A DNA stretch of 11,880 nt from a virus (IMGVR_UViG_2602041579_000011:1-11880), one strand, 5' to 3'. Positions 792-6,710 are shown, counted from the stretch's first letter. Translations and numbers: made by a program. Notes: generated by a model from the letters alone, not told the origin.

Positions 792-867
<76 letters not shown>

Positions 868-870
868 ATA

Positions 871-946
<76 letters not shown>

Positions 947-948
947 AC

Positions 949-1025
949 TGGACCGCCACCGGGGACTCGAACCTCGCACACTCAACTTAAAGGGTTGACG
1001 CTCTTTCCTGATGAGCTAGTGGCGG
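949..1025 (-). tRNA. tRNA-like gene of uncertain identity (possible Lys-UUU-like, with atypical C at position 33); may be a pseudo-tRNA
   Basis: Reverse complement CCGCCACTAGCTCATCAGGAAAGAGCGTCAACCCTTTAAGTTGAGTGTGCGAGGTTCGAGTCCCCGGTGGCGGTCCA: perfect 7-bp acceptor stem (CCGCCAC/GTGGCGG), T-loop GGTTCGAGTCC, encoded CCA. But the anticodon loop is CCTTTAA, the 5' base is C, the discriminator is U and the T-stem has one mismatch. Confidence 0.45.
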
Positions 1026-1026
1026 C

Positions 1027-1102
1027 TGGTGGCCCTTGCTGGATTTGAACCAGCGACCTGGCGATTATGAGTCGCTCGCTCTCACCACTGAGCTAAAGGG
1101 CC
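1027..1102 (-). tRNA. tRNA with CAU anticodon, ileX-like (tRNA-Ile2, lysidine-type, AUA-decoding) rather than elongator Met
   Basis: Reverse complement GGCCCTTTAGCTCAGTGGTGAGAGCGAGCGACTCATAATCGCCAGGTCGCTGGTTCAAATCCAGCAAGGGCCACCA: anticodon loop CTCATAA; overall sequence very close to my recollection of E. coli ileX and unlike metT/metZ. Confidence 0.75.
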
Positions 1103-4316: not shown

Positions 4317-5183
4317 TTAGGGGTATGATTGCAGAACTGTAATACCTTCTTTCAACTGTTCAAAATTCTTAAACTTTCTGAGCCTTTCTCTACATAGATC
4401 TCTGGACTTACCATTATCATCTTTATGAATGAATATAATATTCACATCATAACTTAACTTTCCATACATTGGGCCAGGGCAGGCAAGAAAATTATCATGT
4501 CGATATCTGTTACCAACAAACCAATACCCCTCATATCCCAACATGGATAAGAAGTCTACAACATCATCTGTAACTTTCTTATTAACAGCCTCACAGAATA
4601 TTGCTGGCTTGTTATTTTTAATTGTATTCACAGCACCACGCATACAATTGATTTCATATCCTTCAACATCTATTTTGATGAAATCAATTTTTATCCCTAC
4701 AGACTCCATAAATGCATCTATGGTAATAATGGCTGGGCTGGGCTGGGCTGGGCTGGGCTGGGCATCATAGCACCCTTCATTATTATAACCATTTTCTATA
4801 GAAAATGAACCGTAATTCCAGGGTTTATCGTATGAAGATACAGGAATTATAATATCCCCGCAAATATCACCAACAGCTTTGTTATATGGCATAACATTCA
4901 ATACGTTATTTATAGCCAGATTTCCACACAACATATTAAATATTGGTGGCTGAGGTTCAAAACATATTACCTTTCCATTTCTACATATTTTTGATAATGG
5001 TATTGTATGCAAGCCTATATTTGCACCAATCTCTAAAACATTGCTGCCTTCTGATAATAATGTTTTGTATAAGTCGACCTCAACTTCACACCATTCGCCA
5101 TAATTTGAGGCATAGTTAGAGATCATATCGCCCCGGAGTAAAATAAAACTTCCCCATCTTAACTCTTTAATATACGTTCTCAT
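4317..5183 (-). CDS. FkbM-family (Methyltransf_21) SAM-dependent methyltransferase, AT-rich cargo gene
   Basis: 288-aa protein with SAM-binding motif VLEIGANIG, VICFEPQP, and the FkbM signature IDFIKIDVEGYE followed by KPAIFCE. AAGGA SD 7 nt upstream of ATG 5183. Visibly more AT-rich than neighbouring genes (by eye, not computed). Confidence 0.8.
   Translation of the reverse strand: MRTYIKELRWGSFILLRGDMISNYASNYGEWCEVEVDLYKTLLSEGSNVLEIGANIGLHTIPLSKICRNGKVICFEPQPPIFNMLCGNLAINNVLNVMPYNKAVGDICGDIIIPVSSYDKPWNYGSFSIENGYNNEGCYDAQPSPAQPSPAIITIDAFMESVGIKIDFIKIDVEGYEINCMRGAVNTIKNNKPAIFCEAVNKKVTDDVVDFLSMLGYEGYWFVGNRYRHDNFLACPGPMYGKLSYDVNIIFIHKDDNGKSRDLCRERLRKFKNFEQLKEGITVLQSYP
4731..4763. repeat. Pentanucleotide tandem repeat (GGCTG)x6.6 inside the methyltransferase ORF
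   Basis: ggctgggctgggctgggctgggctgggctgggc read directly; on the coding strand (CAGCC)n encodes AQPSPAQPSPA between the SAM-binding motif and the DVEGYE motif. Confidence 0.95.
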
Positions 5184-5590
5184 TCGCTAATCCTTATCTA
5201 TATTAAAATTACTTATATAACGTCTTACTGAAGTGGGTTAAGTGCGGGTGCGTTGAGGATGCCTGACACATCAGAGGTGGCGAGGGATTTCTCCCTCGCC
5301 TGGTCTCTTACTCCTCAGGTTCGTAAGCTGTGAAGACAGCGACCTGGCGATTAACATCGCCTTTTGCTGCTTCATAGCCTGCTTCTCCTTGACCTTTCGG
5401 TCCGTAAGAGGCTAATCTCTATGTGTCGCATAGATATGGCCTCAGATTAATGTTAAGCGTCTTGCAGGACGCGTAATGTTAACTGGGGCTTTTCTCTATC
5501 TGCCTTTTGGTGTTCATGCCTGAGGCAGATAGCCTCAAGCACCCGCAGCAATTCTACTTAACTCTCGCTTTACCGCAAACCGTTTTTACC

Positions 5591-5612
5591 CGATATGGGA
5601 ATTCCCATATCG
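5591..5612. repeat. 22-bp perfect palindrome centred on GAATTC
   Basis: CGATATGGGAATTCCCATATCG is its own reverse complement; starts 9 nt past the stop of the 34-aa mini-ORF; no U-tract follows on either strand. Confidence 0.9.
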
Positions 5613-5620
5613 TAATGAAT

Positions 5621-5725
5621 TCAGTTCCCTAGTCGATCCATCAAAAACACAACCAGGCAGTAAACGCCCACAACAGCAACAACAGCCAGCGCACCTTCCA
5701 TTGCCAGTGATATATCATCCGACAT
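5621..5725 (-). CDS. Small hydrophobic peptide (34 aa, one predicted TM helix)
   Basis: ATG at 5725-5723 preceded by AAGGAGGG SD at 5 nt spacing; translation MSDDISLAMEGALAVVAVVGVYCLVVFLMDRLGN. Below the ORF-track length cutoff. Confidence 0.45.
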   Translation of the reverse strand: MSDDISLAMEGALAVVAVVGVYCLVVFLMDRLGN

Positions 5726-5760
5726 ATTCCCTCCTTTGGTGTTAATCCCGGCGAACGTTT

Positions 5761-5844
5761 TTACCCCCACCGACAAATAACATATACTAAAAAAGCGATA
5801 GCCATAGCAACGCCTGTAATTGCAAATGCTTCAGGCCAGTTCAT
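5761..5844 (-). CDS. Small hydrophobic peptide (27 aa), translationally coupled to the DUF551 gene
   Basis: ATG at 5844-5842 overlaps the DUF551 stop (ATGA); GCAGGAGGTG SD sits inside the end of the upstream gene; translation MNWPEAFAITGVAMAIAFLVYVICRWG. Confidence 0.4.
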   Translation of the reverse strand: MNWPEAFAITGVAMAIAFLVYVICRWG

Positions 5845-6710
5845 TGGCGCACCTCCTGCGGCGGTTCTGGTAGAGGCATCCAGTGTGATGGTATCCACGA
5901 CGCACCAGGTATTATCCACCCATCATTAGCGTCAGGATGCCCCGGGATGTAAGTCGCCCATTTCATTCGCCAGTCACCTTTCCTGCCAAAATCCCTGGCA
6001 ACAAGAACGGCTGTTTTGGTATCCGGCATTCGCTCACTACAGCTTATCCAACTATCCGGAGTTACCGGATAGTTGCCCGATAGTGCATTCTGCTCCAGTG
6101 ATGCTTTTACAAACCACGCTGCCTGAACTATAACGCCATGAATCCAGCGCAAATCAGCATCGCGATCTTTCTTTTTCATCTTTTCGCCACTTAAGGCCTT
6201 GCTTATGTGGCTGCGTACCAGGTCTTCATGTAATTCCTTCGCCTCCTCAATGGTGAAACCACCAGGCAGAAGAGCCGGAGTTACCGGAGAGCTGGTTGAC
6301 GCTTCCGGGATTTTCCGAAAATTATTGGTTGACGAATCTTTATTTTCCCGAAAGTTTCCGGACTGAAGCATGGCTTCGCGGCAATCGTTCCAGCCTGTAG
6401 CGTATGCAGCCGCTTTGCTGCTGCCTTCAACTGGCGCATCCTGCCAATACATTTCTTCCGGCACTATCGGCGCTGGAGGGGCGGCAAATAGATATCCGCC
6501 AAAGTCAGGAAGCTCTCTAATGGCCTGTACGAATTTTTGTTTGCCTACGTCAACCCCTAATGGGTAATGAGCTATAATCTTTGCCACCGGCTCTGCTTCC
6601 AGCGATGCCAGCGCAATCCGTGCCAGTTCCATTTGTTCACCACGGGTAAGCCCGTTTTCAAGCGGATTTTTAATGAACAATTCAATACGTTCTTTGGTAA
6701 TAGTGGTCAT
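5841..6710 (-). CDS. DUF551-domain phage protein (289 aa)
   Basis: C-terminus WISCSERMPDTKTAVLVARDF...SHWMPLPEPP matches the DUF551 hallmark (W-x-S-x-x-ERLP ... HWMPLPEPP) as I recall it. AAGGAGT SD upstream of ATG 6710. N-terminal about 200 aa not recognised. Confidence 0.7.
   Translation of the reverse strand: MTTITKERIELFIKNPLENGLTRGEQMELARIALASLEAEPVAKIIAHYPLGVDVGKQKFVQAIRELPDFGGYLFAAPPAPIVPEEMYWQDAPVEGSSKAAAYATGWNDCREAMLQSGNFRENKDSSTNNFRKIPEASTSSPVTPALLPGGFTIEEAKELHEDLVRSHISKALSGEKMKKKDRDADLRWIHGVIVQAAWFVKASLEQNALSGNYPVTPDSWISCSERMPDTKTAVLVARDFGRKGDWRMKWATYIPGHPDANDGWIIPGASWIPSHWMPLPEPPQEVRQ

What the first reader, a model, noticed from the sequence alone, without database searches (positions are those of the whole stretch)
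5184..5620. About 440 bp of ORF-free, hairpin-dense leader upstream of the methyltransferase gene
The region has no ORF with a credible RBS but several strong symmetric elements: a 9-bp stem / 4-nt loop hairpin GGCGAGGGA-TTTC-TCCCTCGCC (5279-5300); a terminator-like hairpin GGCGAT-TAAC-ATCGCC followed by TTTT on the plus strand (5346-5365); direct repeats TAATGTTAA flanking the palindrome GCGTC-TTGCAG-GACGC (5448-5482); a 9-bp stem CTATCTGCC/GGCAGATAG (5496-5532); and a 22-bp perfect palindrome on GAATTC (5591-5612). The two plus-strand hairpins could delimit a short plus-strand RNA antisense to the methyltransferase leader, as in type I antisense control. It could equally be a structured 5' UTR or a set of protein-binding sites.
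Basis: partly seen in the sequence, partly recalled or inferred. Interest (0 to 1): 0.5.

Follow-up and report, generated by a model that had tools for sequence, protein, structure and literature searches.

The report
Broken hok/sok toxin-antitoxin locus, orphan palindrome
The "ORF-free hairpin-rich leader" is a well-known hok/sok toxin-antitoxin module of a lambda-like prophage, lying on the opposite strand, whose toxin gene has lost 88 bases; next to it sits a 22-base palindrome that also turns up, apparently undescribed, inside KilA-N DNA-binding genes of many bacterial phyla.

Summary
All five symmetric elements are at the stated coordinates. Four of them are the standard RNA helices of a hok/sok type I toxin-antitoxin locus on the minus strand (Rfam RF01794, 108 bits against a threshold of 59, window 5544..5373). 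The hok mRNA starts at 5544. Its 5' end pairs with a 3' box at 5258..5246. The Sok antisense RNA is on the plus strand at about 5425-5497, not at 5230-5365.

The region looks ORF-free only because 88 nt inside hok are missing (junction 5345|5346). The nearest relative, E. coli E41, is 100% identical on both sides and has an intact 51-aa HokD. The deletion junction was found in no collection searched. The hok terminator is also replaced, so read-through into the FkbM methyltransferase gene is possible. The locus is therefore a known system in a decayed state.

The fifth element, the palindrome at 5591-5612, lies outside the hok/sok core. The exact 22-mer recurs in diverse phyla, mostly at one fixed codon position of KilA-N genes, including BstA-like ones. 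It is read there in two different frames and kept palindromic by compensatory changes. Its function is unknown, and I found no description of it.

The parts
5551..5578 (-). Putative hok promoter: -35 TTGCGG (5578..5573), 16-nt spacer, -10 TAGAAT (5556..5551), with the start G at 5544.
   Evidence: The segment is conserved in 76 related loci. The assignment is inferred from spacing and from the start of the Rfam model. The simple consensus scan did not flag it because the -35 matches only 3 of 6.
5225..5544 (-). Residual hok mRNA: leader, truncated hok and 3' UTR. The 3' end is undefined because the terminator is missing.
   Evidence: Rfam RF01794 covers 5544..5373 at 108.3 bits, E 2e-24. Fold z = -9.3. 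The conserved module spans about 5231-5585.
5533..5544 (-). 5'-terminal box GGGUGCUUGAGG (tac-like), which pairs with the 3' box.
   Evidence: It pairs with 5258..5246 in the MFE folds of both the window and the intact E41 mRNA. Helix 1 has 12 pairs, 100% paired in 64 sequences, and its only two variants are G-C to G-U.
5246..5258 (-). 3' box CCUCAACGCACCC (fbi-like fold-back element).
5496..5532 (-).
   Evidence: It lies inside the Rfam consensus structure. Helix 2 shows one A-U to G-C double change in 4 sequences and C-G/U-G alternation 34:30, which is compatible only with the minus-strand RNA.
5440..5488 (.). In hok mRNA it is the Sok-target stem-loop. On the plus strand it is the Sok terminator stem.
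   Evidence: Rfam alignment. Sok fold. Helix 4 has 18 pairs, 99.6% paired, with 3 double changes in the short-hairpin variant.
5372..5431 (-). mok-like leader ORF: SD GAGG at 5443..5440, ATG at 5431, 19 codons, and a TGA overlapping the hok ATG (ATGA).
   Evidence: In other alleles the same ORF is in frame with hok and gives a 70-aa product (annotated; alignment).
5346..5375 (-). hok codons 1-10 (MKQQKAMLIA). The deletion junction lies between 5346 and 5345.
   Evidence: Alignment with E41, pPE4 and Stx2_14040..
5308..5345 (-). hok 3' remnant (out of frame; would encode ..VAVFTAYEPEE*).
5271..5375 (-). Frameshifted 34-codon remnant ORF MKQQKAMLIARSLSSQLTNLRSKRPGEGEIPRHL*, which lacks the transmembrane helix.
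   Evidence: It has no Pfam or PHROG hit, whereas the intact E41 Hok hits PF01848 (1e-23) and phrog_251 (3e-33).
5346..5361 (-).
   Evidence: Helix 9 is invariant in 64 sequences, so it gives no covariation information.
5279..5300 (-). hok 3'-UTR hairpin GGCGAGGGA-GAAA-UCCCUCGCC.
   Evidence: Helix 16 is 99.3% paired, and pair 339-352 occurs as G-U (36), A-U (21) and G-C (6). The hokW allele carries the A-U to G-C double change.
5228..5239 (-). Remnant of the 5' half of the hok terminator. AACCCACUUCAG replaces AACCCGCUUCGGCGGGUUUUU.
   Evidence: Nearly all other loci keep the terminator. The window and E41 diverge here into the methyltransferase cassette.
5389..5418 (+). sok promoter: -35 TTGACC (5389-5394), 18-nt spacer, -10 TAATCT (5413-5418).
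   Evidence: It is homologous to the sokW -10 (TAACCTA) that was mutated in the promoter-less construct of PMC8621323. The primers were mapped on L084.
5425..5497 (+). Predicted Sok antisense RNA of about 70 nt: a single-stranded 5' end complementary to the mok SD/ATG, a long terminator hairpin, and the tail GGGGCUUUUCUCU.
   Evidence: Fold -32.2 kcal/mol, z = -5.6. The sokW Northern probe YO-592 maps to the homologous segment. The start position (+/- 2 nt) is inferred.
5591..5612 (.). Perfect 22-bp palindrome CGATATGGGAATTCCCATATCG, centred about 57 bp upstream of the hok start. It is outside the hok/sok core and is an orphan copy of a dyad otherwise found inside KilA-N genes.
   Evidence: The window has no KilA-N gene.
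5621..5725 (-). Upstream neighbour: 34-aa hydrophobic ORF MSDDISLAMEGALAVVAVVGVYCLVVFLMDRLGN.
   Evidence: Annotated as a hypothetical protein in E41.. No family hit.
4317..5183 (-). Downstream neighbour: FkbM-family methyltransferase gene (288 aa).
   Evidence: Pfam PF05050, 2.7e-15. E41 annotation.

Best explanation
Window 5225-5585 is a hok/sok-type (hokD/hokW-like) type I toxin-antitoxin module. It is embedded, on the minus strand, in the early-right (nin) region of a lambdoid prophage.

In the intact form, a weak promoter makes a hok mRNA of about 410 nt. Its 5' end (5544..5533) pairs with a 3' box (5258..5246) and keeps the mRNA closed. A short leader ORF (mok, 5431..5372) is translationally coupled to hok. 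A plus-strand Sok RNA of about 70 nt (about 5425-5497) pairs with the mok ribosome-binding region and blocks toxin synthesis.

In this window, 88 nt inside hok (codons 11-40) are deleted. This shifts the frame and removes the transmembrane helix, so the toxin is dead. The sok promoter, the Sok RNA and all leader and 3' helices are intact. The hok terminator has been replaced by the junction with an FkbM methyltransferase cassette.

The locus is therefore a decayed addiction/lysis-assist module that can at most still make Sok RNA and a non-toxic structured transcript.

Shown: family membership, the deletion, conservation and covariation of the helices, and the missing terminator. Inferred: promoter positions, transcript ends and expression.

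The palindrome at 5591-5612 is a separate, adjacent element.
For: - Rfam RF01794 scores 108.3 bits against a gathering score of 59, over the full model.
- The flanks are 100% identical to E. coli E41, where hokD is annotated. The window lacks 88 nt of the CDS.
- The intact Hok matches PF01848 and phrog_251; the remnant ORF does not.
- 5'-3' pairing is predicted in both the deleted and the intact mRNA, with z = -9.3 and -8.6.
- On 64 distinct related mRNAs, 97.4% of cells are paired against 36-42% for slid controls. Double changes and G-U alternations fit only the minus-strand RNA.
- The module is 88-92% identical in nucleotides to the experimentally characterised hokW-sokW, and all published primers and probes map to it.
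- The genomic context is holin, tRNAs, Q, RusA, DUF968, replication genes, cro and cI.
Against: - There are no expression data.
- The simple sigma-70 scan flags neither the hok nor the sok promoter.
- The deletion allele is unique. It is absent from 5,426 complete E. coli genomes, the GTDB representatives, IMG/VR, the JGI metagenomes and the gene-product index. A sequencing or assembly error, or a cloning artefact, cannot be excluded.
- The structure tested was derived from one of the aligned sequences, and that alignment is 96% identical, so most pairs are uninformative.
Confidence: 0.9

Rival explanations
1. The region is a structured 5' leader of the FkbM methyltransferase mRNA. Transcription from the hok promoter, or from the phage early operon, reads through into the methyltransferase gene, and the hok-derived helices modulate its expression.
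For: - The hok terminator AACCCGCUUCGGCGGGUUUUU, present in nearly all related loci, is replaced in the window and in E41 exactly where the methyltransferase cassette begins.
- No minus-strand promoter-like site was found between hok and the methyltransferase ATG.
- Both genes are on the same strand.
Against: - The helices are conserved as part of the hok/sok module next to many unrelated downstream genes.
- Only 5 of 5,426 E. coli genomes have the methyltransferase at this position.
- The hokW locus also lacks this terminator but has no methyltransferase.
- At best this is a secondary consequence, not the origin of the structure.
Confidence: 0.15
2. One reading: a small plus-strand RNA at about 5230-5365, bounded by the hairpins at 5279-5300 and 5346-5365, acts as an antisense regulator of the methyltransferase leader.
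For: The terminator scan flags GGCGATTAACATCGCC followed by TTTTGCTGCT on the plus strand.
Against: - That hairpin lies in hok codons 6-11, and its T-run is the complement of Gln-Lys codons.
- G-U variants in the 5279-5300 hairpin fit only the minus-strand RNA.
- No plus-strand promoter is predicted just upstream of 5230. The only plus-strand hits are at 5117-5144 and 5177-5204.
- The experimentally supported antisense RNA of this family maps to 5425-5497.
Confidence: 0.03
3. Palindrome only. The 22-bp dyad at 5591-5612 is a DNA site recognised by a KilA-N-domain protein, such as a BstA-like abortive-infection protein or a KilA-N regulator encoded elsewhere. Each such gene carries its own cognate dyad inside its coding sequence. 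The orphan copy 57 bp upstream of the hok start acts as an operator or a decoy.
For: - The exact 22-mer occurs in 63 species-representative genomes of many phyla, 40 of them inside KilA-N ORFs.
- It occupies the same codon position in two families but is read in two frames, as DMGIPIS and as RYGNSHI.
- Two samples of KilA-N genes, collected through their protein sequence rather than through the palindrome, show strong compensatory covariation. Scores are 0.225 against a shuffle mean of 0.10, and 0.543 against 0.19, with 0 of 500 shuffles reaching the observed value and slid controls at or below 0.165.
- There is no sense-strand wobble bias, which favours a DNA-level dyad.
- Family A is BstA-like, and BstA is known to be controlled by a DNA element within its own locus (PMC8585504).
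Against: - No binding data exist.
- The published aba element of BTP1 is a different sequence at the 5' end of bstA, and BTP1 BstA matches family A only in its C-terminal domain.
- No KilA-N gene is in the window, nor within the roughly 10-kb stretches around 85 hok-linked copies.
- Free covariation of the arms is more typical of a nucleic-acid hairpin than of a protein-contacted sequence.
Confidence: 0.3
4. Palindrome only. It is a passive feature: a hairpin-forming recombination junction or remnant at a mosaic boundary, or a U-less hairpin that insulates or terminates transcription from the small upstream ORF. It has no specific protein partner.
For: - It lies at a mosaic boundary. The same 36-bp unit (GAACTGAATTCATTN plus the palindrome) joins hok to at least 2 different upstream contexts, 53 and 27 loci.
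- It is absent from most hok loci.
- An 11-nt direct repeat, GGGTAAAAACG, brackets the 175-bp segment that carries it.
- The DNA hairpin has dG of about -8.4 kcal/mol.
Against: - There is no U-tract on either strand.
- Exact conservation of 22 bp in unrelated genomes and contexts is not expected for a passive remnant.
Confidence: 0.35

Closest known systems
hokW-sokW of Sakai prophage 5 (Sp5) of E. coli O157:H7 (Takada et al. 2021, PMC8621323)
   Same: It has the same module in the same kind of lambdoid prophage. Nucleotide identity is 88-92% on both sides of the deletion, and the Hok proteins of the intact relatives share 46 of 51 residues. The sok promoter and probe regions are homologous. 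It also lacks the CCCGCUUCGGCGGG terminator.
   Different: - The window's hok has an 88-nt frameshifting deletion.
- The mok frame here ends at the hok ATG instead of being in frame with hok.
- The Sok 5' recognition segment is of a different sequence type.
- hokW has no upstream 22-bp palindrome and no methyltransferase downstream.
hok/sok of plasmid R1 (the prototype; Rfam RF01794)
   Same: The leader architecture is scored by the covariance model. The locus has 5'-3' fold-back pairing, a leader ORF targeted by a cis-antisense RNA, and a small membrane toxin of the Hok/Gef family in intact relatives. The mechanistic details (tac/fbi, 3' processing, RNase III cleavage) come from established knowledge of R1 and were not tested here.
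   Different: - It is on a prophage, not a plasmid.
- The Sok-target hairpin is about 20 nt longer than the Rfam consensus.
- The toxin is inactivated.
Chromosomal/prophage hokD (relF) loci and other decayed E. coli hok loci
   Same: PGAP names the intact E41 protein HokD. Natural decay of hok loci by rearrangement is seen here too: L035 and L039 have a foreign 5' region fused just upstream of the hok SD, and L080 is another such case. That K-12 hok loci are mostly inactivated is from my own knowledge (Pedersen and Gerdes 1999) and was not checked here.
   Different: Here the regulatory leader and sok are complete and the lesion is inside the toxin ORF. This particular deletion was found nowhere else.
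BstA-aba self-immunity system (Owen et al. 2021, PMC8585504), for the palindrome only
   Same: A KilA-N-type prophage defence protein is controlled by a short DNA element located within its own gene locus. The family A genes that carry the palindrome are BstA-like.
   Different: - aba(BTP1) is a 63-bp element at the gene start with CCCGCC direct repeats, not a palindrome at codons of about 58-65.
- BTP1 BstA does not share the family A N-terminal domain.
- The palindrome also occurs in a non-BstA KilA-N family and as orphans.

Membership tests
hok/sok type I toxin-antitoxin (Rfam RF01794 leader) | The leader sequence and structure score above the curated gathering threshold. | tested here: met
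   108.3 bits against 59, E 2.1e-24, model positions 1-157 of 157, window 5544..5373 minus strand.
hok/sok type I toxin-antitoxin | An intact Hok/Gef-family membrane toxin ORF (Pfam PF01848, about 50 aa). | tested here: not met
   The window ORF is a 34-aa frameshifted remnant with no Pfam or PHROG hit. The intact E41 homologue scores 82.9 bits on PF01848. The locus is a member by descent, as a pseudogene, and not a functional toxin gene.
hok/sok type I toxin-antitoxin | Long-range complementarity between the mRNA 5' end and a 3' box (tac/fbi fold-back). | tested here: met
   5544..5533 pairs with 5258..5246 in the MFE folds. The helix has 12 pairs, 100% paired in 64 sequences, with variants only G-C to G-U.
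hok/sok type I toxin-antitoxin | A leader ORF (mok) whose ribosome-binding region is the antisense target and which is coupled to hok translation. | tested here: met
   SD GAGG, ATG at 5431, 19 codons, TGA overlapping the hok ATG. It lies opposite the predicted Sok 5' end. The coupling itself was not tested.
hok/sok type I toxin-antitoxin | A cis-encoded antisense RNA with its own promoter and terminator. | tested here: inconclusive
   The promoter is placed by homology to the mutationally defined sokW -10. A hairpin plus U-rich tail is predicted. There are no transcript data for this locus, and the promoter is not flagged by the consensus scan.
hok/sok type I toxin-antitoxin | Toxicity of Hok and its neutralisation by Sok. 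| not testable with these tools
   This needs expression experiments. The published data are for hokW-sokW only (PMC8621323).
Intrinsic terminator (for 5346-5365 on the plus strand) | A GC-rich hairpin followed by a U-tract at the end of a transcription unit. | tested here: inconclusive
   The pattern is matched. However, it lies inside hok codons 6-11, upstream of the sok promoter, and no plus-strand gene ends there.
BstA anti-BstA (aba) element (for the palindrome) | Sequence and position of aba as defined for BTP1: 63 bp spanning the bstA start, with terminal CCCGCC direct repeats. | tested here: not met
   The published aba sequence has no similarity to CGATATGGGAATTCCCATATCG. The palindrome lies at codons of about 58-65 of family A genes.
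KilA-N-gene internal dyad (described here) | A 22-bp dyad with CG(A/T)TA...TA(T/A)CG arms, commonly around a GGGAATTCCC core. | tested here: met
   Window 5591-5612 is identical to the commonest allele found inside KilA-N genes.
KilA-N-gene internal dyad (described here) | Location inside a KilA-N ORF. | tested here: not met
   There is no KilA-N ORF in the window. The copy is intergenic, 13 bp upstream of the hok -35.

The most novel reading that the evidence does not exclude
The 22-bp palindrome upstream of hok is a functional orphan copy of a previously undescribed DNA dyad. KilA-N-domain genes across bacterial phyla, including BstA-like abortive-infection genes, carry this dyad at a fixed position inside their own coding sequence. 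The dyad would be the cognate recognition site of the KilA-N protein, giving self-regulation or self-immunity as aba does. Orphan copies in other prophages would act as decoys or operators, either protecting the phage from KilA-N/BstA-type defence or placing neighbouring genes such as hok under its control.
Probability: 0.25. Interest if true: 0.8.

Novelty: already known. Interest (0 to 1): 0.35.

Why it matters
The main result is corrective. Raw-sequence reading took a textbook toxin-antitoxin module for an ORF-free regulatory leader, because the toxin gene carries an internal deletion and lies on the other strand. The locus shows how hok/sok modules decay in prophages: the toxin is lost while the antitoxin RNA and the cis-structures are retained. 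A surviving Sok could still silence sibling hok loci of the same recognition type, but that is speculation.

The by-product may matter more. A DNA dyad is kept palindromic by compensatory changes inside KilA-N genes of many phyla, in two reading frames. If confirmed, it would give a concrete DNA target for a widespread but poorly understood DNA-binding domain. It would also give a testable handle on how BstA-like defence proteins recognise DNA.

Tried and rejected
- **Methyltransferase leader or riboswitch.** Rejected as the primary reading. The conserved block travels with hok, not with the methyltransferase.
- **tRNA or other Rfam families in 5184-5620.** None apart from sok.
- **Source of the deletion allele.** I searched for the junction in complete E. 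coli genomes, GTDB representatives, IMG/VR and JGI metagenomes, and looked up the remnant ORF and the methyltransferase protein by exact match. Nothing was found.
- **First placement of Sok.** I first put Sok at about 5389-5452 with a promoter in hok codons 1-10, from memory of R1. I dropped this after the sokW promoter-mutant primers mapped the -10 to 5413-5418.
- **Palindrome as a sequencing adaptor or linker artefact.** Rejected. It occurs in assemblies from different technologies, the flanks encode in-frame diverged KilA-N proteins, and variants covary.
- **Palindrome explained by a conserved DMGIPIS peptide.** Rejected. A second family reads it in another frame, and variant dyads encode unrelated peptides.
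- **Palindrome as the published aba element.** Rejected.
- **Linkage of hok-associated palindromes to a nearby KilA-N gene.** Not found: 0 of 85 stretches.
- **Literature searches for the palindrome sequence and for KilA-N or BstA palindromes.** Nothing relevant was found.

Full report
**Observation.** These are the 9-bp/4-nt hairpin at 5279-5300, GGCGAT-TAAC-ATCGCC plus TTTT at 5346-5365, the TAATGTTAA direct repeats around the GCGTC/GACGC palindrome at 5448-5482, CTATCTGCC/GGCAGATAG at 5496-5532, and the perfect 22-bp palindrome at 5591-5612. The density of structure is far above chance. The minus-strand RNA 5544..5225 folds with z = -9.3. The plus-strand segment 5425-5500 has z = -5.6. The palindrome has no approximate match in shuffled windows.

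**Identity.** A scan of the whole window against Rfam gives one non-tRNA hit. It is RF01794 (sok, the hok/sok leader) at 5544..5373 on the minus strand, at 108.3 bits against a gathering score of 59, over the full model. BLAST against phage and E. coli collections shows that the region is the hok/gef locus of lambdoid and Stx prophages. Neighbouring ORFs place it in the early-right region of a lambdoid prophage: holin, four tRNAs, Q, RusA, DUF968, FkbM methyltransferase, then hok/sok, DUF551, replication genes, cro and cI. All genes from holin to cro lie on the minus strand, so the region is 'upstream of the methyltransferase' only in the sense that hok is the preceding gene.

**Why it looks ORF-free.** The best match, E. 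coli E41, is 100% identical on both sides but 88 nt longer, and it carries an annotated 51-aa hokD.
- The alignment places the deletion between window 5346 and 5345. It removes codons 11-40 and shifts the frame.
- The remnant ORF reads MKQQKAMLIARSLSSQLTNLRSKRPGEGEIPRHL*. It has no family hit, whereas the intact protein matches PF01848 and phrog_251.
- None of 76 distinct related loci from IMG/VR or GenBank has the deletion.
- A 32-40-nt junction probe finds nothing in 5,426 complete E. coli genomes, the GTDB representatives, IMG/VR or the JGI metagenomes, and the remnant peptide is in no gene catalogue.
- The allele is therefore private to the source, or an error. I cannot tell which.

**Anatomy (all hok parts on the minus strand).**
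- **Putative hok promoter:** TTGCGG, 16 nt, TAGAAT at 5578..5551, with the start G at 5544 (inferred).
- **Fold-back pairing:** the 5' box 5544..5533 pairs with 5258..5246 in the MFE folds of both the deleted and the intact mRNA.
In the mRNA it is the Sok-target stem-loop. On the plus strand it is the Sok terminator.
- **Leader ORF:** a 19-codon mok-like ORF at 5431..5372 ends in a TGA that overlaps the hok ATG.
- **Sok:** the primers of the hokW-sokW study all map onto a locus 88-92% identical to the window. The heptamer mutated to kill the sokW promoter corresponds to TAATCT at window 5413-5418, with TTGACC at 5389-5394. Sok is therefore predicted at about 5425-5497 on the plus strand. The deletion leaves it untouched.

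**Conservation and covariation.** I counted the E41-derived structure on 64 distinct hok mRNAs.
- 97.4% of cells are paired, against 36-42% when partners are slid.
- Five pairs carry double changes.
- Frequent C-G/U-G and A-U/G-U/G-C alternations in elements 4 and 1 are compatible only with the minus-strand RNA.
- Caveat: the family is 96% identical and the structure came from one member, so most pairs are uninformative.
- The conserved block runs from about 5231 to about 5585, and the flanks are mosaic.
- The most variable patch of the module is the mok start and Sok 5' end, with 17 sequence types among 65 mRNAs.

**Local peculiarities.** Nearly all related loci end with the terminator AACCCGCTTCGGCGGGTTTTT. 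In the window and in E41 the 3' half is replaced where the FkbM methyltransferase cassette begins. Only 5 of 5,426 genomes have that cassette at this position. Read-through from hok or from the phage early operon into the methyltransferase is therefore plausible but untested. This is the only sense in which the 'leader' reading survives.

**Mechanism.** The intact module should work as established for R1 hok/sok and shown in part for hokW-sokW. It makes a closed, stable toxin mRNA, and an unstable antisense RNA blocks the leader ORF. Toxin synthesis follows when Sok is lost, which happens on prophage induction in Sp5 (PMC8621323). Here the toxin step is abolished. What may remain is Sok RNA and a structured non-coding transcript. 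I give 0.9 to 'decayed hok/sok locus'.

**The palindrome: distribution.** It lies 13 bp upstream of the hok -35 and outside the conserved core. It is present in only about 12 of 76 unbiased hok loci. A 36-bp unit containing it joins hok to at least two different upstream contexts. The exact 22-mer is also in many non-hok viral contigs and in 63 species-representative genomes, from Cyanobacteria, Bacteroidota, Proteobacteria, Bacillota, Spirochaetia, Chloroflexota and others. Of those 63, 40 lie inside KilA-N ORFs, always between the 'ST..FL.EL' helix and the 'KGG..QGTW' motif.

**The palindrome: two reading frames.** One family is BstA-like (phrog_6287 2e-83; PADLOC BstA on the C-terminal half) and reads the 22-mer as DMGIPIS. 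A Bacteroidota family reads the same 22-mer one frame over, as RYGNSHI.

**The palindrome: covariation.** I collected two samples through protein motifs, independently of the palindrome. Variant dyads at this position are kept palindromic by paired changes. Examples are CGATGCGGGAATTCCCGCATCG, CGATGTCGGAATTCCGACATCG, GTCTATGGGAATTCCCATAGAC, CGATATTCAGATCTGAATATCG and GTTCCCTCACATGTGAGGGAAC.

| Sample | Covariation score | Shuffle mean | Shuffles reaching observed |
|---|---|---|---|
| Family A (BstA-like), IMG/VR | 0.225 | 0.10 | 0/500 |
| Family B, metagenomes | 0.543 | 0.19 | 0/500 |

Slid controls score at most 0.165. Some clades lack the dyad. Mismatches show no sense-strand wobble bias, which favours a DNA-level dyad over an mRNA hairpin, though the numbers are small.

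**The palindrome: what it is not, and what remains open.** The BstA paper describes a different DNA immunity element (aba) at the 5' end of bstA and no palindrome. Three literature searches found no description of this dyad. The window has no KilA-N gene, and neither do the roughly 10-kb stretches around 85 hok-linked copies. What the orphan does here is therefore open: KilA-N protein site, recombination junction, insulator hairpin or remnant.

**Verdict.** The core feature is an already known system in a decayed state, so its interest is low. The adjacent palindrome is a real and apparently undescribed lead that raises the overall score somewhat.

Noticed in passing
window 5591-5612; loci L204-L266, L267-L346, L347-L426: KilA-N domain genes of at least two families carry a 22-bp dyad at one fixed position of the domain-coding region. 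One family is BstA-like and found in many phyla; the other is a Bacteroidota/metagenomic family. The two read the dyad in two different frames, and compensatory changes that alter the encoded peptide keep it palindromic. I found no description of this in the searchable literature.
   Followed up: partly
window 5419-5440 (columns 107-127 of alignment A2): The most variable patch of an otherwise 96%-identical hok/sok module is the mok start and Sok 5'-end recognition segment, with 17 sequence types among 65 mRNAs. This suggests diversification of antisense specificity among co-resident prophage hok/sok loci.
   Followed up: partly
window 5756-5766 and 5581-5591 (minus strand): An 11-nt direct repeat, GGGTAAAAACG, brackets a 175-bp segment containing the small ORF at 5725..5621 and the palindrome. 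The segment is absent from hokW-type loci, where a small ORF ending ...ICRW(R/G)* abuts the hok promoter directly. It looks like an insertion or a microhomology junction.
   Followed up: partly
window 5621-5725 and about 5762-5845 (minus strand): Two small hydrophobic ORFs lie in tandem upstream of hok: MSDDISLAMEGALAVVAVVGVYCLVVFLMDRLGN and MNWPEAFAITGVAMAIAFLVYVICRWG. The second is homologous to the peptide encoded just upstream of hokW in Sp5-like phages. Neither has a family hit.
   Followed up: no
window 5228-5239: The hok terminator is cut in its loop where the FkbM methyltransferase cassette starts. Only 5 of 5,426 complete E. coli genomes have this cassette next to hok.
   Followed up: partly
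window 4731-4763 and about 5790, compared with L003 (E. coli E41): The nearest relative, E41, differs from the window in three ways. It has an IS5-family (ISKpn26) insertion right of the small ORFs. Its methyltransferase gene is split or frameshifted, whereas the window's is intact at 288 aa. Its hok is intact. Each copy of this prophage carries different lesions.
   Followed up: partly
window 793-1102 (minus strand): Four tandem tRNA genes (Met-CAT, Lys-TTT, Thr-TGT, Gly-TCC) lie between the Q antiterminator gene and the holin gene. E41 has only the Gly and Thr genes in the fetched stretch.
   Followed up: no
L035, L039, L080 (IMG/VR loci): These are hok loci in which the whole leader and sok are replaced by foreign sequence, joined just upstream of the hok SD. 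In L035 and L039 it looks like the 3' end of another operon, as at K-12 relBE-hokD. They show other natural routes of hok/sok decay.
   Followed up: no
L009 (IMG/VR), upstream of hok: This locus has a variant orphan palindrome, CGATGCGGGACTTCCCACATCG, with a paired A-T to G-C change. It resembles the CGATGCGGGAATTCCCGCATCG allele seen inside a BstA-like gene (L329). Orphans may therefore come in the same alleles as the gene-internal dyads.
   Followed up: no
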